From Gammaproteobacteria bacterium (GTDB lineage Bacteria; Pseudomonadota; Gammaproteobacteria; Eutrophobiales; Eutrophobiaceae): 64,000 nt of DNA. The stretch's first letter is position 1; each line of letters starts with the position of its first letter. Location of the stretch: the NCBI GenBank assembly GCA_046757565.1, contig JBHHYN010000004.1, positions 4,086 through 68,085 of the forward strand. The letters are read 5' to 3'. Shown here in pieces: positions 1 through 6,613 of the stretch. The position numbers and the translations under genes are program-made. The notes beneath the pieces were generated by a model. That model did not search any database and was not told the origin of the DNA. It saw only the letters and a list, made by a program, of their open reading frames with translations.

Positions 1-628
1 TGTTGCCATCGTAGATAGCGGCAAAAAGAGTCACTTTCTCGTCTCGGCCAGCTTCCTCGCTAAGCATCTGCAGGAAGCTGATATTCTGACTACGGCGGGC
101 GGTGTCGCTTATGTTGGTAATGCCGCGTTCAAGCTCATCGAGAATGATGACCAGGTGCTTGTCACCCATAGCAGCACGAAATTCGTCCAGGTTGGGGGGG
201 CGGTCCTTTGACCACTCCGTGCCGAGTTGCTGACCGATCAACAGCCACAACGCGTCGTCGGGCATGGATTGATCGGTGAACTTCTGAACGATGATTTCCG
301 TGTCTGCGGGAGGTGACCATTTCAGCCCAAGTGTTTCTGTCCATGCCCGGGCCTGGTCGGGATTCTTGAATAAGTGATATCCCAAGAGGAGGGTGTGGGA
401 TTTACCCAGCCCTTTTACCGACTGGGCGAGAACTGTCCCGGGCGCAGTTTCATTGCCAAAACGCCGGATTAGTCCGCGCAGAACAGCATGCACATCTTCA
501 GTGGGGTAGGTGAGATCAAAGAATTTCTGGGCATTCCGCTCCAAGCTGTTTACCGGACCGGAACGGAGGCGTTCCAGGTCGATAACGCCATCCAAGTTAT
601 GAGCAGAATCGTAGCGTTTTTTCAGCAT
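1..628 (-). CDS. P-loop NTPase, N-terminal part only (gene continues past the left edge); possibly a BrxC/PglY-like DUF499 defense ATPase
   Basis: Reverse-complement reading frame is open from an ATG at 628 to position 1 (MLKKRYDSAHNLDGVIDLERL...). Walker A-like SVKGLGKSHTLLLGY and Walker B HLVIILDELE are present. The tool did not list it because there is no stop codon inside the window. The family assignment is from memory of BrxC N-termini (GFFGSGKSHF) and is only tentative. Confidence 0.55.
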   Translation of the reverse strand, partial: MLKKRYDSAHNLDGVIDLERLRSGPVNSLERNAQKFFDLTYPTEDVHAVLRGLIRRFGNETAPGTVLAQSVKGLGKSHTLLLGYHLFKNPDQARAWTETLGLKWSPPADTEIIVQKFTDQSMPDDALWLLIGQQLGTEWSKDRPPNLDEFRAAMGDKHLVIILDELERGITNISDTARRSQNISFLQMLSEEAGRDEKVTLFAAIYDGN

Positions 629-1203
629 AATTCTATGCTAGTAAAGAAATCTAGATATGTCAAGAATATTACTCTCCTGCCCTATGCGTATAGTTTCAAC
701 AACACCCTGGCCAAAAAAGCTTTTCTATTAGCCTGTCATTGCAAAACCTCATCGTATCGTAGCGAAGTGACGGGCCACGATGCGGGATCTCGACTGTATT
801 TACACCATGATGAGTCTGCATGAGCGAGACGTAGGCAGTCTCCTGGTTTGTGCTATGGGTAGTGGCGATGTGACCACGTAGAGGTAAACGACTGGCTCAT
901 CAAGGACACATAGAGAGAAAGCACTATAAAGACGTTCCGGTGGGGATGAATCCGCTCGACTGAGACCGTCGGGTGTATGGTGCAGTGCATCAGCCATGCG
1001 GATCATGGCTCACACTCGTCAGGGAAATGATAGGTTAACTGTCATTTCCCCGATTCGGCTCCCCTTCCAGCCTGTCAATGATATTCTGATGGCCTGGACC
1101 TGTGATGGGGTCGAATTAATGAAACAGAAGCCGCTATTATGTAAATCCGGTTTGTCTTCCTCCAGACGCCACTGGCAGTGAAACCCGATATTGTTTCATT
1201 CCA

Positions 1204-1902
1204 TTAAAGCCTGAATGATTCCAGTTCCATGGTATAGTTGCCGTTGATTGTATTCGGCGAAGCGGTTTCCTGCCTGACGCTTTTAACCAGGCCTGTCCCC
1301 GGTGCATACCAATCAGTGTGCTCCACCCTGATTGTCCTGACTCCTGCAAACAGCTTAAGCGCCCGTTTTGTATTAAGGTGGCCGCGCCCTTCGATGCGGA
1401 CACAGTGCAGAAAAATACCGGCAGGGACCTCCACCGTTTCATTGATAGCTTCAATCCTGTACTCCAGTTGTACCGGTCCTGTGGTGGCCCAGATCTCAGC
1501 CCTGTTCTGACCGGGTATTTCCAAAAAAGAAATTCTGGAACTGCCTTTCCATTTTGTCCCGACCTGCAAGGGATAGCGCAAAACCTGCATTCCCGTGTCT
1601 TCCAATGAACGCAGGCGCACAATACCATTATTGGATTTGGTATATAGCTCTATTGAGCCGCTGGCCGATTTTCTAGGGAACACGGTAATTCCGTTAATTT
1701 CTCTGGGCGGCAGTGTTGCAACAACGTATTTCTGTGTAAGTTGTTTGCTATCCACAGTACGGGTGATTGTATATTCCCACCAGGCATGATTGCCCAAGGG
1801 AAAATAATCCTGATGATGTTTACTACAGCCGTACAGTAGAAACAGAAGGGGCAGTAAGGCCACCTTCAGGTTCCGGATATTGTTTACTTTGCGTTCATTC
1901 AA
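1204..1902 (-). CDS. hypothetical lipoprotein (signal peptide with lipobox LLYGC)
   Basis: 232-aa ORF. The N-terminus MNERKVNNIRNLKVALLPLLFLLYGCSK carries a lipobox. Its start overlaps the stop of the upstream CPBP gene by 4 nt. The listed start is a TTG. Confidence 0.6.
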   Translation of the reverse strand: MNERKVNNIRNLKVALLPLLFLLYGCSKHHQDYFPLGNHAWWEYTITRTVDSKQLTQKYVVATLPPREINGITVFPRKSASGSIELYTKSNNGIVRLRSLEDTGMQVLRYPLQVGTKWKGSSRISFLEIPGQNRAEIWATTGPVQLEYRIEAINETVEVPAGIFLHCVRIEGRGHLNTKRALKLFAGVRTIRVEHTDWYAPGTGLVKSVRQETASPNTINGNYTMELESFRL

Positions 1903-2822
1903 CTACCGTCCAGCTCCCGAATTTTGTTCTGTTCATGATTATTTGAGCCAGGCTGTATTTGTTTGAACGCAACGACGTAGTAGAAAATGACCGCCACACA
2001 CAACCAGATGGATGCCAGATACCCCGTAGTATGATCGTAATTGTTCACCAGATAGCCAAAGCTGCTGCCGGGCCGGTAATCAGACAAATAAGAGGTAATC
2101 TTGTATGCACAGACAATGCCGGCATGGAGACCGATGCATTGTGTTATGTTGCCCGTTCTCCAGCGCACCATGCCGAGCAATATTCCGAGTATAAACAAGG
2201 TAATAAAGGAATCCACCGTCACCGGATCGCTGAATCTGTGTAGTCCGTTAACAAGTATCCACAGGCCGGTAAACCAGCCAACATCTGTGTTGGCAGGAAG
2301 GGCCGGGTACTTGATAAAGTGAACGGCTGCATAAACCAGAGAGGAAAGTAGCAAGGCCGCCGTTATATTGATTTGTCTGGCAAGGCCGCTAAATATGGCG
2401 CCACGAAAAATGGTTTCCTCTATTAAACCGACGACGAAGCCGCTTAGCAGCGCCTTTAGTGCAATTATCAAAAACGGAACCAGGCCGGCGCCCATATCCG
2501 GATCAGGCAGGCGCATACCCAAAACATACAGGCTGGCTTCTATGACTACCAGGATCAGTGCGCCTGCGGCAAATGCGGAAAGGAGTCCAGGTAACCAATC
2601 GCCGCGCCTGACATTGAACCCCAGGGCCGCAAGAGAGAGATGGCTTAATTTCAGGTATAAAACGCCAAACAGCAGTCCGCAGAACACGGTTGTGTGGGAA
2701 ACCAGCTTGTAAAACCTGATCTCGAAGAACGGCGACAACAGCAGATACACGGGATAGGAAAGCAATGCTCCCGTGAATAGCACGGTCACAACGATAAGGG
2801 AGAAAAGGAGTAAAGGGCGCAA
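1899..2822 (-). CDS. CPBP family (CAAX protease / Abi) intramembrane metalloprotease
   Basis: 307-aa multi-TM protein with the EExxxR-type motif LIEETIFRGAIFSGL and downstream conserved His residues (AAVHFIKYP), typical of the CPBP/Abi family. Confidence 0.8.
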   Translation of the reverse strand: MRPLLLFSLIVVTVLFTGALLSYPVYLLLSPFFEIRFYKLVSHTTVFCGLLFGVLYLKLSHLSLAALGFNVRRGDWLPGLLSAFAAGALILVVIEASLYVLGMRLPDPDMGAGLVPFLIIALKALLSGFVVGLIEETIFRGAIFSGLARQINITAALLLSSLVYAAVHFIKYPALPANTDVGWFTGLWILVNGLHRFSDPVTVDSFITLFILGILLGMVRWRTGNITQCIGLHAGIVCAYKITSYLSDYRPGSSFGYLVNNYDHTTGYLASIWLCVAVIFYYVVAFKQIQPGSNNHEQNKIRELDGS

Positions 2823-2852
2823 TGGAGATCGTAGAACGTCAGTGTCCCGTGG

Positions 2853-3167
2853 TCATTGTATTACTGCCTCCGCCGCGTCCGTATTACCTTTGTTATCCGA
2901 CCAGTTTATACGAATCATATCGCCCGGTTTGGCCCCTGAAAACTTAAATGAAAGGTAAGGATTTTTGGAAACAGCGCGGCCCCAGTTACACCGTAACACC
3001 ACGTCATCGCCGTGCCGGCAGATTACCTCCTTGATAAAATGGGCCGGGACCAGTTCGCCCGTTTCCCTGCTCCGGACAAGGCCGGTTTCCATCGGGTGCC
3101 TGATAATGGACCTGACTGTGGTCGTCCCGTTATGGTAATCCGTTCTGATCCGGATGCTGGACGTCAT
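2853..3167 (-). CDS. soxZ: thiosulfate oxidation carrier protein SoxZ
   Basis: 104 aa; ...HPMETGLVRSRETGELVPAHFIKEV...GRAVSKNPYLSFKF... matches SoxZ family signatures. Immediately downstream of soxY. Confidence 0.85.
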   Translation of the reverse strand: MTSSIRIRTDYHNGTTTVRSIIRHPMETGLVRSRETGELVPAHFIKEVICRHGDDVVLRCNWGRAVSKNPYLSFKFSGAKPGDMIRINWSDNKGNTDAAEAVIQ

Positions 3168-3207
3168 AACCTGGTTGAGAGTGAAGTGTAATCATATTCA
3201 TGCTGTT

Positions 3208-3660
3208 TCAGCCACAGCCTCCTTCGACAACTTTAACGAACTTTCTCGCCGAATAGACTCCCTCTTCCGACCGGACAATGGCGATAATATCTGAAGGCTC
3301 AGCTACTTTTATCCTGGTTGCGACAAAACCGGTACATTCCGGACTCAGTTCAAAGTCAGCAACCAGGGGATTGGGATTCTTTTCGACCAGTATGGTAATC
3401 GATTGAACGGCCGGGATATCGGTGGTAATCCTGATGGGAACAACTGCGCCGTTTTCAACAAGGTCATTGACGCTGATTGTTATCGAATCGCTTGGCGTTA
3501 TCTGTTTGCCCGGAAAGAACGCGGACAGGGCTTCATGTTCCGTCTTCGCCGCAAAGGCGCCTGCATTCCAGCCGGCCCTGACGGAAAATGGCTTGAGCAA
3601 AGCAGTAACGCCGATAAATCCCACAAGTTTCCTGAGTAGTGTTCTGCGGCTGATGTTCAT
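3208..3660 (-). CDS. soxY: thiosulfate oxidation carrier protein SoxY (Tat signal; C-terminus ...VVEGGCG)
   Basis: 150 aa with a twin-arginine signal (SRRTLLRKLVGF...A) and a C-terminal Cys-bearing tail GGCG followed by stop. Adjacent to soxZ. Confidence 0.85.
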   Translation of the reverse strand: MNISRRTLLRKLVGFIGVTALLKPFSVRAGWNAGAFAAKTEHEALSAFFPGKQITPSDSITISVNDLVENGAVVPIRITTDIPAVQSITILVEKNPNPLVADFELSPECTGFVATRIKVAEPSDIIAIVRSEEGVYSARKFVKVVEGGCG

Positions 3661-3700
3661 CCGTCAAAGACAAAATGGCGAGGTAGATGTTTTTTTGATG

Positions 3701-5224
3701 TTACTTGATTAATTTAAGATCTTTCTCGATCTGGAGTTCCTGTTCCAAAAAGGCAATTCTGTCATGGAGGCGCTCCTCCTGAAAGTAATCGGGTTTTGGG
3801 TTTCGTTGCCGCAGAATATATTTTAATTGTTGAATGGCAACTCTTGTCTCCCCGGATAAATAGTAGTACTCAGCACTGGCTATACCCGACTCAATAGTAT
3901 TCCCCGACTCGGCCTCTGCACGGGTCAGAAAATCATAATAAGTCAGATCCTGGTCATGAAACTTTCCGTATCTCTTCAGCAGTTCACGGGCCTGTTGAGG
4001 GTGATCAGCCTGCAACAGCGCCTCGGTGTAGGCAAGGACCACCGGACGATAATCCGGATAAAGCTTTATGGCCTGTTCATAGATTCTAAACGCCTGCTGA
4101 TAGTTGTTTTGGCGGGTTTGTAAATCGGCAGCGGCCAGCAGGTAGGAGGTATTCTCCCCATCCTCTGCCAGTAACTCCTGTAACTGATTGTACGCCTGCC
4201 TGTATCTTCCTGCTTCCATGAGGGCAAGGGCATAGCCATAATGAAGAGGGGCATAATTGTTACCGTACTGCTCGTCTTCCAGTTTCTGTTTGAAAAAGTC
4301 AACAGCGTGCCGGGGATCCTTCTCCGACATGGCCACAATTTTGGCTTGCATGAACGCAAACTTCTTGCTCTCGTTATACCGTAGATCAGGGGGATAGGCT
4401 TCCGCCCTGGCGCGGCTGTCTGCAATCCGGTTGGTAGTGAGCGGATGCGTACGCAAGAACTCGGGCGCCTTACCGGCATAGCGGGAGTTTTTCTGCAGCT
4501 TTTCAAAGAAACTTGGCATGCCACGTGGGTTAAAACCGGACCTTGCCAGTAATTGCATGCCGATCCGATCAGATTCCGCTTCGTTAGAACGGGTAAAGTT
4601 AATCCGGGTCTGGGCGGCCACCCCTTGTACAGCAGCCATGGCAGCCTGCCCGGCCTGGGGATTCTGGGAGGCGATAAGGATAGCGCCCAGCAGTGCCGCC
4701 ATCATGGGCAAACTCATCTTTGATTGCTTTTCGAAGGAACGCGCCATGTGCTTTTGTGTAACGTGTGAGATTTCATGGGCCATCACTGCCGCCAATTCAC
4801 TTTCATTTCCTGCATTCAGGATCACACCGCTGTTTATGCCGACAATGCCTCCCGGGGCGGCAAAGGCATTAATTATCGGATCGTCAATTACAAAGAACGT
4901 AAACAGTTGGGTATTGTTGTCGCTACTCGATACCAGACGGTAACCGATGGATTGAATATAGGTCTCTATCTCCGGATCAGTAATAATCTTTGCCTGTTTG
5001 CGTACCTGGCTGAGAAACGCCTGGCCCAGGCGGCGTTCAAATTCCGGCGACATCAGTGTGCCGGTAGAGTCACCGATATTGGGAAGATCCAGGGTCGTGA
5101 CGGCACTCGCCGTCGCCGTCAACAAAACAAGACTCAACAGTAAATATCTAATGAACGGCAACGCTGAAATTCTCCCGTATATTCTACTCTTGTGAGTCCG
5201 ATAGCATACCCAAGTTCCTGTCAC
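3701..5224 (-). CDS. bepA: M48 metalloprotease with TPR repeats, BepA (YfgC) family
   Basis: HEISHVTQKH zinc motif, signal-peptide-like LLLSLVLLTATASA, C-terminal TPR-like repeats. The true start may be an internal start codon. Confidence 0.85.
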   Translation of the reverse strand: MTGTWVCYRTHKSRIYGRISALPFIRYLLLSLVLLTATASAVTTLDLPNIGDSTGTLMSPEFERRLGQAFLSQVRKQAKIITDPEIETYIQSIGYRLVSSSDNNTQLFTFFVIDDPIINAFAAPGGIVGINSGVILNAGNESELAAVMAHEISHVTQKHMARSFEKQSKMSLPMMAALLGAILIASQNPQAGQAAMAAVQGVAAQTRINFTRSNEAESDRIGMQLLARSGFNPRGMPSFFEKLQKNSRYAGKAPEFLRTHPLTTNRIADSRARAEAYPPDLRYNESKKFAFMQAKIVAMSEKDPRHAVDFFKQKLEDEQYGNNYAPLHYGYALALMEAGRYRQAYNQLQELLAEDGENTSYLLAAADLQTRQNNYQQAFRIYEQAIKLYPDYRPVVLAYTEALLQADHPQQARELLKRYGKFHDQDLTYYDFLTRAEAESGNTIESGIASAEYYYLSGETRVAIQQLKYILRQRNPKPDYFQEERLHDRIAFLEQELQIEKDLKLIK

Positions 5225-5347
5225 TCTCAGATCGGCATTAGCTAATCAGGAGTTCACTGAAATTACCTGGATGCAATTTATCTAAATTTCTACAACAATA
5301 ATAGGCATTATTTAAGTAAATAATGTGAAATTCAGGAGTGATTTATC

Positions 5348-6613
5348 ATGGCACAAGGTAAAAACGCATTTTATGCCCAGTCCGGCGGCGTGACGGCGGT
5401 CATTAACGCTTCTGCCTGCGGCCTCATCCAGGCCGCCCGCGAGAACAGGGACAAAATCGCCAATGTCTATGCCGGGCGCAACGGCATTATCGGCGCCCTG
5501 ACCGAAGACCTTATCGACACAGGCCAGGAGAGTGATGAGGCGATTGCCGGCTTGCGTTACACGCCCTCCGGCGCCTTCGGCTCCTGCCGCTACAAGCTCA
5601 AGGGCCTGGAAGAGAACCACGCTGAATACGAGCGTCTGATCGAGGTCTTCAAGGCCCATGATATCGGCTACTTCTTCTATAACGGCGGCGGGGATTCCGC
5701 CGATACCTGCCACAAGATCTCCCAGCTATCCGGGAGTTTGGATTTTCCCATCCAGACGATACATATCCCCAAGACAGTGGATAATGATCTGCCGATCACC
5801 GATACCTGTCCGGGTTTCGGATCAGTGGCAAAATATATCGCCGTCTCTACCCGGGAGGCCTCCTATGACGTGCGCTCCATGGCCAGGACCTCCACGAAAG
5901 TGTTTGTGCTCGAGGTAATGGGCCGCCATGCCGGCTGGATCGCCGCTGCCGGGGGTCTGGCGGCCGACGAGCAGAATGATATCCCGATTGTTGTGCTGTT
6001 TCCTGAGATCCAATTTGATAAACAGCAGTTCCTGGCACGCGTGAAACAGAATGTTGAGCAATACGAATACTGCACGGTAGTTGTATCGGAAGGGGCGAAG
6101 TGGCCCGATGGCGGCTTTCTGGCGGAGCAGGACAGCCGCGACGCCTTCGGGCATGCCCAGCTTGGAGGCGCTGCGCCGGTGGTTGCCAATATGGTAAAAA
6201 GCGCCCTGGGTTACAAATACCACTGGGCCGTGGCCGACTACCTGCAGCGCTCCGCCCGTCATGTCGCCTCCAGGACCGACGTGGAGCAGGCCTATGCCGC
6301 CGGCAGGGCGGCGGTGGAGTATGCCGTTGCCGGAGAAGATGCCCGGATGGTGACGATTGTACGTACAGCGGACGATCCTTATGCCTGGGAGATCGGCCAG
6401 GTGGACCTGGCCGAGGTAGCTAATGTGGAGAAATTCATGCCGGCGGATTTCATTACTGAAGACGGTTTCGGCATCACGGATAGCTGCCGCCGCTACCTGC
6501 AGCCACTGATCCAGGGAGAGGATTATCCACCCTACGCCAACGGCCTGCCGGCCTATGTCCAGCTGAAGGGTGTGGCGGTACCGAAAAAACTGACTGCTCG
6601 TTTTGCCGTCTGA
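5348..6613 (+). CDS. pfp: pyrophosphate-dependent 6-phosphofructokinase (PPi-PFK)
   Basis: 421 aa; GGGDSADT (GGDGS-like) and PKTVDNDL motifs; length and sequence resemble Methylococcus-type PPi-PFK. Confidence 0.85.
   Translation: MAQGKNAFYAQSGGVTAVINASACGLIQAARENRDKIANVYAGRNGIIGALTEDLIDTGQESDEAIAGLRYTPSGAFGSCRYKLKGLEENHAEYERLIEVFKAHDIGYFFYNGGGDSADTCHKISQLSGSLDFPIQTIHIPKTVDNDLPITDTCPGFGSVAKYIAVSTREASYDVRSMARTSTKVFVLEVMGRHAGWIAAAGGLAADEQNDIPIVVLFPEIQFDKQQFLARVKQNVEQYEYCTVVVSEGAKWPDGGFLAEQDSRDAFGHAQLGGAAPVVANMVKSALGYKYHWAVADYLQRSARHVASRTDVEQAYAAGRAAVEYAVAGEDARMVTIVRTADDPYAWEIGQVDLAEVANVEKFMPADFITEDGFGITDSCRRYLQPLIQGEDYPPYANGLPAYVQLKGVAVPKKLTARFAV

What the first reader, a model, noticed from the sequence alone, without database searches (positions are those of the whole stretch)
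1..1203. Window-edge accessory locus: 5'-truncated defense-like P-loop ATPase with an unusually long (575 nt) structured leader
The minus-strand frame from the ATG at 628 to position 1 encodes a Walker A/B ATPase. Its N-terminal architecture (DGVI..L.......FGNET.PG.V.AQSVKGLGKSHTLLLGYHLFKNP...HLVIILDELE) resembles what I recall of BREX BrxC/PglY (DUF499) N-termini. Between its start and the next gene lie about 575 nt with no credible ORF in any frame. This stretch contains two perfect local hairpins (agccatg-cggatc-catggct at about 991-1011; gggaaatgata-ggttaac-tgtcatttccc at about 1022-1051). The flanking genes (lipoprotein, CPBP/Abi-family protease) are also accessory-type. This looks like the border of a defense or accessory island whose body lies left of the window. 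The structured region could be a regulatory leader, an ncRNA, or decayed brxA/brxB-like genes.
Basis: partly seen in the sequence, partly recalled or inferred. Interest (0 to 1): 0.55.

Follow-up and report, generated by a model that had tools for sequence, protein, structure and literature searches.

The report
Defence-operon ATPase with promoter abutting its start
The window's left edge holds the first 209 codons of an 875-residue ATPase that opens a recently described BREX-related phage-defence operon. The 575 bases in front of it are not a structured leader, because a promoter conserved across phyla sits directly against the start codon.

Summary
The ORF, its Walker A/B motifs, the 575-nt gap without a supported gene and the two hairpins are all real. 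The missing part is the gene's 3' end (C-terminus), not its 5' end.

A same-species contig (L004) and an identical GenBank protein (MFQ5659001.1) show an intact 875-aa DUF499/HmaC-type AAA+ ATPase. A standalone PglZ gene follows it with a 4-nt overlap. More than 300 homologues share the operon ATPase–PglZ–(small protein + PIN)–DUF1156 methyltransferase–SNF2 helicase. This is the "Type-3 BREX-related" system of Rakesh & Krishnan (NAR 2026). It is related to PADLOC's Hma and is not canonical BREX.

The "structured leader" reading fails:
- The whole gap folds no better than shuffles (z −0.95 and −0.57).
- Rfam finds nothing.
- Only bases 634–670 are conserved in relatives.

Those bases hold TTGACA-17-TAGCAT ending 6 nt before the ATG, with no Shine-Dalgarno sequence. 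In 19 of 20 relatives from several phyla the −35 lies 28–31 nt from the ATG, and a palindrome overlaps it. This predicts a leaderless mRNA, which is inferred and not shown.

The tandem hairpins are locally significant but unconserved. They are probably a 3'-end or insulator element of the upstream operon.

Verdict: a new member of a known kind.

The parts
1..628 (-). First 209 codons of an 875-aa DUF499/HmaC-type AAA+ ATPase. It is the first gene of a Type-3 BREX-related (Hma-like) defence operon, and the remaining 666 codons lie left of the window.
   Evidence: Translation is. Full length comes from the same-species contig L004 and from the identical GenBank protein P0029/MFQ5659001.1. More than 300 homologues of 860-900 aa were found. 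The AF2 model with Foldseek matches clamp-loader, ORC/Cdc6 and STAND ATPases.
395..415 (-). Walker A / P-loop, KGLGKSH (residues 72-78).
   Evidence: Sequence. K72, G73, G75, K76, S77 and H78 are invariant in 34 homologues.
128..154 (-). Walker B, LVIILDELE (residues 159-167).
   Evidence: Sequence. D164, E165, L166 and E167 are invariant.
635..665 (-). Conserved promoter module TCTTGACATATCTAGATTTCTTTACTAGCAT. The -35 TTGACA is at 663-658, the spacer is 17 nt, and the -10 TAGCAT is at 640-635. The half-sites TCTTGA (665-660) and TCTAGA (655-650) form an imperfect palindrome over the -35. Only AGAATT (634-629) separates the -10 from ATG 628, so the predicted transcription start is at or next to the A of the ATG (leaderless mRNA).
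   Evidence: Promoter scan scored 10 of 12. The same element is in register in 19 of 20 relatives found by protein similarity, and none of those 19 has a Shine-Dalgarno sequence. Of 52 metagenome loci carrying the motif, 17 have the ATPase 15-16 nt downstream. It is the only part of the gap with matches in relatives.
666..1203 (.). Non-coding spacer between the soxYZ-CPBP-lipoprotein operon and the defence operon. It has no supported gene, no Rfam family and no conservation outside the species.
   Evidence: A 1-nt indel at about 911 in L004 breaks the two longest minus-strand ORFs. The 61-aa plus-strand ORF has one weak PD40-repeat hit.
992..1050 (.). Tandem hairpins: 992-998/1004-1010 (7 bp, loop 5) and 1022-1032/1040-1050 (9 perfect bp plus G·T and A·T, loop 7). 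They lie 154-212 nt downstream of the lipoprotein stop and about 330-385 nt upstream of the -35. Neither strand has a U-tract after them.
   Evidence: -33.9 kcal/mol for 76 nt on the minus strand, z -6.2. No copy elsewhere in the window or in relatives.
1204..1902 (-). Flanking context only: DUF3108-like lipoprotein gene. It overlaps the CPBP/Rce1-like gene (1899-2822) by 4 nt and lies downstream of soxZ and soxY. It is the last chromosomal gene before the defence operon.

Best explanation
**What it is.** Positions 1-628 (minus strand) are the start of an intact 875-aa DUF499-type AAA+ ATPase. It is the lead gene of a 'Type-3 BREX-related' (Hma-like) restriction-modification-like phage-defence operon that extends left of the window.

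**Shown.**
- In the same species the ATPase is full length and is followed, with a 4-nt overlap, by a standalone PglZ-type phosphatase/nuclease gene.
- In homologous loci the operon continues with a small protein plus a PIN nuclease, a DUF1156 N6-adenine methyltransferase, DUF8076 and a nuclease-less SNF2 (BrxHII-like) helicase.

**Inferred from the family description (PMC12839542).** The ATPase assembles and scans, the methyltransferase marks self DNA, and PglZ with the helicase restricts unmarked invader DNA.

**Expression.**
- Shown: a sigma70-type promoter (TTGACA-17-TAGCAT, 663-635) ends 6 nt before the ATG. There is no Shine-Dalgarno sequence. The promoter-to-ATG spacing is conserved across Gammaproteobacteria, Rhodocyclales, NC10 and Desulfobacterota.
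- Inferred: the operon is transcribed as a leaderless mRNA starting at the A of the AUG. The 6-4-6 palindrome over the -35 is an operator for an unidentified repressor.

**The rest of the gap.**
- Positions 666-1203 are not a leader. They are unconserved spacer at the junction between the chromosomal soxYZ-CPBP-lipoprotein operon and the acquired defence operon.
- The tandem hairpins at 992-1050 most likely end or stabilise the upstream operon's transcript, or insulate the defence promoter from read-through. This is inferred, and confidence is low because no U-tract follows them.
For: Identity:
- The 209-aa fragment hits HmaC at 4.7e-8 and DUF499_antiphage at 2e-7.
- Full length (L004 3249-5876) hits HmaC at 6e-18, PADLOC DUF499 at 7e-14 and NCBIfam DUF499_antiphage at 6e-22.
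- 19 of 34 family members hit Pfam DUF499, best 8.6e-9.
[quoted passage not shown] Foldseek returns clamp loader, ORC/Cdc6 and NLRP14.
- P0029/MFQ5659001.1 is identical to window residues 12-209 and lies on a 75,984-bp contig.

Operon:
- The next gene in L004 is 66% identical to the 330-aa PglZ-like protein of L020 and carries VTSDHGY. PADLOC PglZ scores 5.5e-6, and Pfam PglZ is recorded on many homologues.
- Relatives' loci hold the same gene set, the ATPase, PglZ, the small protein plus PIN, the DUF1156 methyltransferase and the SNF2 helicase, with L079 lacking the last two in the stretch seen.
- The helicase hits BrxHII at 6e-102 and HmaA at 1e-101.
- This matches the published definition.

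Promoter:
- TTGACA, with at most 2 mismatches, lies 28-31 nt from the ATG in 19 of 20 relatives.
- The one exception, L007, has the promoter 57 nt upstream and then carries a GGGAGGAAGG Shine-Dalgarno sequence.
- In the metagenome motif scan, 17 of 52 motif loci have the ATPase 15-16 nt downstream.

Not a leader:
-.
Against: - No transcript data exist, so the transcription start, leaderless translation and operator function are untested.
- The window's -10 (TAGCAT) and its palindrome (TCTTGA/TCTAGA, 5 of 6) are weaker than the family consensus.
- The promoter scan alone is not significant in this region (3 sites found against 2.4 expected).
- The methyltransferase and helicase were not seen in the source species, because contig L004 ends inside the PglZ gene.
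- Degenerate copies exist in relatives (L001, L002), so an incomplete system cannot be excluded.
- HMM scores to DUF499 models are far below the curated full-length cut-offs (Pfam 16.5 against 23; NCBIfam 77 against 1200). The family is a divergent branch.
- No phage-defence experiment exists for Type-3 BR systems. Only a Type-1 HmaA helicase-nuclease has been tested (PMC11232893).
- The hairpins lack a U-tract, so a terminator role is a guess.
Confidence: 0.72

Rival explanations
1. One reading: the ATPase is transcribed from a promoter near the lipoprotein gene. Positions 629-1203 would then be a long structured 5' leader (riboswitch, attenuator or ncRNA) controlling the defence operon.
For: The two hairpins are real, and the 76-nt segment around them folds far better than shuffles (z -6.2). 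No gene is supported in the gap. A weak promoter-like site lies at 1106-1078 on the minus strand (9 of 12).
Against: - The whole-gap MFE is ordinary (z -0.95).
- Rfam finds nothing at E<=10.
- Nothing beyond 634-670 is shared with any of 74 related loci.
- Relatives have upstream gaps of only 83-126 nt in several cases.
- A conserved promoter abuts the ATG, and no Shine-Dalgarno sequence exists for internal initiation on a long transcript.
Confidence: 0.06
2. The conserved 634-665 element is not a promoter. It would be an operator or other protein-binding site inside a longer transcript. In that case the gene is not leaderless, and it is translated by read-through from the upstream operon or from another promoter.
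For: The palindrome TCTTGA-N4-TCAAGA is conserved inside what would be the promoter spacer, where sequence is usually free. The same motif at the same spacing precedes two ArsR-like genes, suggesting a regulator site. The -10 is only moderately conserved (TAnnn[T/A]).
Against: - The perfect TTGACA, the T-rich upstream tract, the 17-nt spacing to a TA-initial hexamer and the fixed 6-7 nt to the ATG fit a promoter exactly.
- No Shine-Dalgarno sequence is present in the window or in 19 of 20 relatives.
- The one relative with the element displaced upstream has gained a strong Shine-Dalgarno sequence.
- Promoter and operator roles are not mutually exclusive.
Confidence: 0.15
3. Canonical BREX island border: the ATPase is BrxC/PglY, and the gap holds decayed brxA/brxB genes.
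For: DUF499 was historically the BrxC annotation. A PglZ gene follows the ATPase.
Against: - There is no DUF6079 or BrxC hit in Pfam or PADLOC at E<=1.
- The PglZ is a 330-aa standalone domain, not the ~850-aa BREX protein.
- The partners are a DUF1156 methyltransferase and an SNF2 helicase.
- tblastx and Pfam on the gap find nothing.
- In relatives nothing conserved precedes the promoter.
Confidence: 0.04
4. The spacer contains a decayed gene fragment: a PD40/TolB-like beta-propeller repeat on the plus strand at about 970-1100. The hairpins would then be incidental.
For: ORF 996-1181(+) has one hit among 1.84 billion representatives. The hit is P0269, a kinase with PD40-like repeats, at E 1e-5 summed over 5 repeats. 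tblastn extends the match slightly upstream of the ORF.
Against: PD40 repeats are extremely common, yet only one protein matched. Identity is 25% over 55 aa with a 12-residue gap. The Pfam PD40 model was not hit at E<=1.
Confidence: 0.08

Closest known systems
Type-3 BREX-related (BR) system, DUF499-centred (Rakesh & Krishnan, Nucleic Acids Res 2026, PMC12839542)
   Same: - A DUF499-type ORC/Cdc6/STAND-like AAA+ ATPase with a C-terminal RRM-like domain.
- A standalone PglZ encoded next to it.
- A DUF1156 N6-methyltransferase.
- An SNF2 helicase of BrxHII architecture without a nuclease fusion.
- PIN-type auxiliary nucleases embedded in the operon.
   Different: - In the source genome only the ATPase and 257 aa of PglZ could be seen.
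- An iSTAND gene (present in 82% of published loci) is not evident in most relatives examined. A 434-aa ORF in L078 is only a candidate.
- The promoter/palindrome module abutting the start codon is not mentioned in the sections of that paper read here.
Hma system (HmaA helicase, HmaB methylase, HmaC ATPase; PADLOC, PMC8565338; HmaA tested in PMC11232893)
   Same: The best PADLOC hit of the ATPase is HmaC. The relatives' helicase hits HmaA (1e-101) and their methyltransferase hits HmaB (2e-8). It has the same tripartite ATPase-methylase-helicase logic.
   Different: Hma proper (Type-1 BR) has a helicase with a C-terminal PD-(D/E)XK nuclease and no PglZ. Here the helicase has no nuclease domain and a PglZ gene is present. 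The HmaC match covers only parts of the model.
BREX type 3 (BrxF, BrxC/PglY, PglXI, BrxHII, PglZ, BrxA)
   Same: The functional set is shared: AAA+ ATPase, N6_N4 methyltransferase, SNF2 helicase (best PADLOC hit BrxHI|BrxHII, 6e-102) and PglZ.
   Different: The ATPase is of DUF499 type, not DUF6079/BrxC type. The PglZ is a 330-aa standalone catalytic domain, whereas BREX-type PglZ models run to roughly 675-855 residues. The methyltransferase carries DUF1156. No BrxF or BrxA was seen.
Leaderless bacterial mRNAs (e.g. lambda cI from PRM, Tn1721 tetR; established knowledge)
   Same: The -10 hexamer ends 6-7 nt before an AUG, and there is no Shine-Dalgarno sequence.
   Different: No transcription start has been mapped here. 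The arrangement is conserved across several phyla together with a mobile defence operon.

Membership tests
DUF499-centred Type-3 BREX-related system | Lead ATPase of the DUF499 lineage: an N-terminal ORC/Cdc6/STAND-like AAA+ domain with Walker A/B | tested here: met
   Walker A/B are invariant. PADLOC HmaC 6e-18 and DUF499 7e-14, NCBIfam DUF499_antiphage 6e-22. 19 of 34 members hit Pfam DUF499. Foldseek returns clamp loader, ORC/Cdc6 and NLRP14. Scores are below the curated full-length cut-offs, so this is a divergent branch.
DUF499-centred Type-3 BREX-related system | C-terminal RRM/ferredoxin-like domain instead of the BrxC coiled-coil | tested here: met
   [quoted passage not shown] This rests on topology only, with no domain-level fold search.
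DUF499-centred Type-3 BREX-related system | Standalone PglZ gene in the core locus | tested here: met
   In same-species contig L004 the next gene overlaps the ATPase stop by 4 nt. It is 66% identical to the 330-aa PglZ-like protein of L020 and carries VTSDHGY. PADLOC PglZ scores 5.5e-6, and Pfam PglZ is recorded on many homologues. Only 257 aa are visible in the source species.
DUF499-centred Type-3 BREX-related system | DUF1156 N6-methyltransferase and a nuclease-less SNF2 (BrxHII-like) helicase in the same operon | not testable with these tools
   Both are present in relatives L020-L024, and L078 has the methyltransferase and the start of the next gene. The source contig beyond L004 could not be fetched: P0029 is not on record and the source genome was not among the hits of the species-representative scan.
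DUF499-centred Type-3 BREX-related system | iSTAND component (82% of published loci) | not tested
   A 434-aa ORF without a Pfam hit follows PglZ in L078 and is a candidate. It is absent from L020 and L024.
Canonical BREX BrxC/PglY | Top profile match to DUF6079/BrxC models, with BrxA, BrxB, PglX and BrxL neighbours | tested here: not met
   Pfam at E<=1 gives only DUF499, and PADLOC at E<=1 gives only HmaC and DUF499. The neighbours in relatives are a DUF1156 methyltransferase and an SNF2 helicase.
Hma (PADLOC) / Type-1 BR | SNF2 helicase fused to a C-terminal PD-(D/E)XK nuclease, with no PglZ | tested here: not met
   The relatives' 932-938-aa helicases show only SNF2, ResIII and Helicase_C domains, and a PglZ gene is present.
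Structured cis-regulatory RNA leader / known ncRNA | A match to a curated RNA family, or folding and conservation beyond chance across the leader | tested here: not met
   Rfam 15 at E<=10 gives 0 hits. The whole gap has z -0.95 and -0.57. There is no similarity in relatives beyond the promoter. Only the 76-nt hairpin pair is locally stable.
Leaderless mRNA | Transcription start at or within a few nt of the start codon | not testable with these tools
   The geometry fits: the -10 ends 6 nt before the ATG, there is no Shine-Dalgarno sequence, and the arrangement is conserved in 19 of 20 relatives. No transcript data are available.

The most novel reading that the evidence does not exclude
The Type-3 BREX-related operon travels between phyla with its own portable expression module. 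This is a near-consensus promoter placed so that the mRNA is leaderless, which would make it translatable without a host-matched Shine-Dalgarno sequence. A conserved 6-4-6 palindrome over the -35 would let an as yet unidentified repressor, possibly the operon's small RHH-like protein, keep the system silent until needed. Separately, the species-specific tandem hairpins at 992-1050 could belong to an unannotated small RNA.
Probability: 0.4. Interest if true: 0.45.

Novelty: new member of a known kind. Interest (0 to 1): 0.3.

Why it matters
- It places an unannotated 'hypothetical protein' of an uncultured sulfur-oxidising gammaproteobacterium in a defence family defined only in 2026 and not yet tested experimentally.
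- It corrects the probable start codon of the GenBank protein.
- It removes a false lead, the long regulatory leader.
- The conserved promoter, palindrome and leaderless geometry give a concrete, testable handle on how these BREX-related operons are expressed and perhaps repressed across very different hosts. The literature searched here does not mention this.

Tried and rejected
- **Rfam.** Searched 1-3000 at E<=10 with no hit.
- **tRNA scan.** Scanned 1-6000 for an integration site and found none.
- **Whole-gap folding.** Both strands fold like shuffles.
- **Similarity of the gap.** blastn and tblastx against the window and 74 related loci matched only the promoter. blastn against plasmid and phage collections found nothing.
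- **ORFs in the gap.** Pfam found nothing on six gap ORFs. An exhaustive phmmer search of the 61-aa ORF gave one weak PD40-repeat hit, which I judge unconfirmed.
- **Small divergent ORFs upstream of the ATPase in L001, L020 and L024.** They are unrelated to each other.
- **Extending into the source contig.** P0029 is not in the contig index, and the source genome was not among the hits of the species-representative scan. The closest PglZ homologue, P0149, sits on a 1.9-kb contig. Only L004 extended the window, by about 3.4 kb.
- **Sequence search of the PDB.** Single-sequence and profile searches found no significant relative with a solved structure.
- **Literature.** A search for leaderless/promoter together with BREX found nothing relevant.
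Full report
**1. Observation**

The minus-strand frame from ATG 628 to position 2 is open and runs off the window. It encodes MLKKRYDSAHNLDGVIDLERL…VKGLGKSHT…HLVIILDELE…. The P-loop (K72 G73 G75 K76 S77 H78) and Walker B (D164 E165 L166 E167) are invariant in an alignment of 34 homologues.

The missing part is the C-terminus, so the title's "5'-truncated" is a slip.

The distance to the next gene is exactly 575 nt. That gene is a DUF3108-like lipoprotein at 1204-1902 on the minus strand. ORFs inside the gap are 68 aa or shorter and have no Pfam hit.

Both hairpins exist:
- 992-998/1004-1010 has 7 bp and a 5-nt loop.
- 1022-1030/1042-1050 has 9 perfect bp, or 11 bp counting one G·T and one A·T pair.

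A stem of 9 bp or more arises in 1.5% of Markov simulations of the gap. About seven comparable hairpins occur in the 64-kb window. The 76-nt pair is locally very stable (-33.9 kcal/mol, z -6.2), although the segment was chosen after seeing it.

**2. What the gene is**

The 209-aa fragment has no Pfam hit. It does match PADLOC HmaC (4.7e-8), PADLOC DUF499 and NCBIfam DUF499_antiphage.

An exact-protein look-up of the neighbouring lipoprotein returned two contigs of the same species, L003 and L004. They are about 99% identical to the window over 1.3 kb. L004 runs 3.4 kb beyond the window edge. There the ATPase is 875 aa, and another gene follows it with a 4-nt overlap.

The full-length protein scores as follows:
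- PADLOC HmaC 6e-18 and DUF499 7e-14.
- NCBIfam DUF499_antiphage 6e-22.
- Pfam DUF499 only 0.0019, below the gathering score.
- No DUF6079 or BrxC model matches.

GenBank protein MFQ5659001.1 is annotated "MAG: Gammaproteobacteria bacterium, ACE5GZ_01135" and sits on a 75,984-bp contig. It is identical to window residues 12-209, so the window very probably comes from that contig and the gene there is intact. Its annotated TTG start (codon 12) is probably wrong. The N-terminus M(L)KKRY…DGVIDLE is conserved in all relatives, and a stop codon lies 1-3 codons upstream of the ATG in most of them.

[quoted passage not shown] Foldseek against the PDB returns clamp loaders, ORC/Cdc6 and NLRP14. That is the ORC/Cdc6/STAND-like AAA+ class described for DUF499 ATPases.

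**3. The operon**

More than 300 homologues of 860-900 aa and 53-88% identity exist in many phyla. In every long contig examined the ATPase gene is followed by a 330-aa protein. That protein scores PADLOC PglZ 5.5e-6, many homologues carry a Pfam PglZ hit, and it has an SDHG motif.

After it come an 80-aa protein plus a PIN-domain protein, a DUF1156/N6_N4 methyltransferase, DUF8076, and a roughly 935-aa SNF2 helicase. The helicase hits BrxHI|BrxHII at 6e-102 and HmaA at 1e-101, and it has no nuclease domain.

The gene after the ATPase in L004 is 66% identical to that PglZ-like protein.

This architecture is the "Type-3 BREX-related system" of Rakesh & Krishnan (PMC12839542). It comprises a DUF499 ATPase, a methyltransferase, a BrxHII-like helicase without a nuclease, a standalone PglZ, and often an iSTAND. 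It is a sister of PADLOC's Hma (Type-1 BR), in which only the HmaA helicase-nuclease has been tested experimentally (PMC8565338 and PMC11232893).

The system is not canonical BREX, however, and no BrxA or BrxB remnants were found.

**4. The 575 nt are not a leader**

- The whole gap folds like shuffled sequence (z -0.95 on the minus strand, -0.57 on the plus strand).
- Rfam finds nothing.
- The gap has no similarity to plasmids or phages.
- Against 74 related loci, only gap positions 6-42 (window 634-670) match.

That stretch is a sigma70-type promoter, TTGACA (663-658), 17 nt, TAGCAT (640-635). Only AGAATT follows before ATG 628.

In 20 relatives found by protein similarity alone, 19 carry TTGACA with at most 2 mismatches. 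Fifteen of those are perfect matches. The hexamer ends 28-31 nt before the ATG, and in 14 cases the distance is exactly 29 nt. At 17-nt spacing there is a TA-initial hexamer, upstream there is a T-rich tract, and there is no Shine-Dalgarno sequence.

The exception is informative. In L007 (Acidobacteria) the same promoter lies 57 nt upstream, and a strong GGGAGGAAGG Shine-Dalgarno sequence has appeared.

An exact-pattern scan of metagenome contigs for TCTTGACANNTCAAGAAANCT found 52 loci. In 17 of them an ATPase homologue starts 15-16 nt after the motif. I take the rest to be chance matches or other genes.

With the -10 ending 6-7 nt from the ATG, the expected transcription start is the A of the AUG, which gives a leaderless mRNA. 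This step is inferred and not shown.

The spacer of the promoter contains TCAAGA. Together with TCTTGA over the -35 it forms a 6-4-6 palindrome. The palindrome is perfect in 11 of 20 relatives and matches 5 of 6 positions in the window. Sequence conservation in a promoter spacer suggests an operator. The binding protein is unknown.

**5. The rest of the gap**

Upstream non-coding gaps in relatives range from 83 to 998 nt, so 575 nt is not unusual. Conservation with relatives stops about 45 nt upstream of the ATG. The acquired unit therefore probably begins near position 670, and 670-1203 is junction DNA.

A 1-nt deletion at about 911 in L004 breaks the two longest minus-strand ORFs. The 61-aa plus-strand ORF gave a single weak hit to a PD40-repeat kinase among 1.84 billion representatives. 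That is not enough to call it a pseudogene.

The tandem hairpins lie 154-212 nt after the lipoprotein stop and have no U-tract on either strand. The most economical reading is a 3'-end or insulator element of the soxYZ-CPBP-lipoprotein operon, but this is a guess.

**6. Neighbourhood**

The genes to the right are the lipoprotein, a CPBP/Rce1-like protease, SoxZ, SoxY, an M48 peptidase and a PPi-phosphofructokinase. They are syntenic in L003 and L004 and look chromosomal. The 4-nt overlap of the lipoprotein and CPBP genes indicates one operon.

**7. Verdict**

- The defence-ATPase interpretation is supported but refined to a Type-3 BREX-related/Hma-like system rather than BREX.
- The "structured leader" is not supported.
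- The locus is a new member of a known, recently described kind.
- The one unreported feature is the cross-phylum conserved promoter, palindrome and leaderless geometry, which deserves a simple 5'-end mapping experiment.

Noticed in passing
window 593-628 (minus strand); protein P0029/MFQ5659001.1: The GenBank annotation starts the ATPase at a TTG (codon 12, 864 aa). The conserved N-terminus MLKKRY…, and a stop 1-3 codons upstream of the ATG in most relatives, indicate that ATG 628 (875 aa) is the true start.
   Followed up: yes
L001 10001-11086; L002 10001-17431: L001 holds a lone degenerate N-terminal remnant of the ATPase with an out-of-frame tail, between a porin gene and cobD. It still has a promoter variant containing the 14-bp palindrome TCTAGATATCTAGA. 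In L002 the operon is split into many short ORFs with an Mrr gene inserted, which could be decay or long-read frameshift errors.
   Followed up: partly
L020 13628-14373; L024 15555-17432; L078 4006-6060; L079 7589-15589: The stretch between PglZ and the methyltransferase/helicase is an insertion hot spot in relatives. Insertions seen:
- An 80-aa (DUF6364/RHH-like) protein plus PIN pair in all four loci.
- A 434-aa ORF in L078, an iSTAND candidate.
- A 625-aa ORF splitting the methyltransferase from DUF8076 in L024.
- SMC-like AAA_15 plus Schlafen/AlbA_2 genes in L079.
   Followed up: partly
L044 about 597-618 (minus strand); L064 939-975: The same motif TCTTGACAnnTCAAGAAAnCT, followed by exactly 16 nt and an ATG, precedes ArsR/SmtB-like regulator ORFs in two unrelated metagenome contigs. 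The promoter/palindrome module may therefore not be exclusive to the defence operon.
   Followed up: no
window 996-1181 (+): A 61-aa ORF spanning both hairpins has one weak match to P0269, a Ser/Thr kinase with PD40/TolB-like repeats (E 1e-5 summed over 5 repeats). It has no Pfam hit. It could be a decayed repeat fragment or chance.
   Followed up: partly
window about 476-503 (codons 43-50 of the ATPase) compared with L004: Eight substitutions, including E44D and H47Y, are packed into about 25 nt between two otherwise almost identical strains. The remaining roughly 1.3 kb has only one further substitution and one 1-nt indel. This looks like a short recombination or hypervariable patch.
   Followed up: no
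window 1204-3660 (minus strand): soxY (3208-3660) and soxZ (2853-3167) are followed in the same orientation by a CPBP/Rce1-like intramembrane protease (1899-2822) and a DUF3108-like lipoprotein (1204-1902). The last two overlap by 4 nt. This is an unusual pairing of sulfur-carrier genes with a CPBP protease, and it is conserved in L003 and L004.
   Followed up: no
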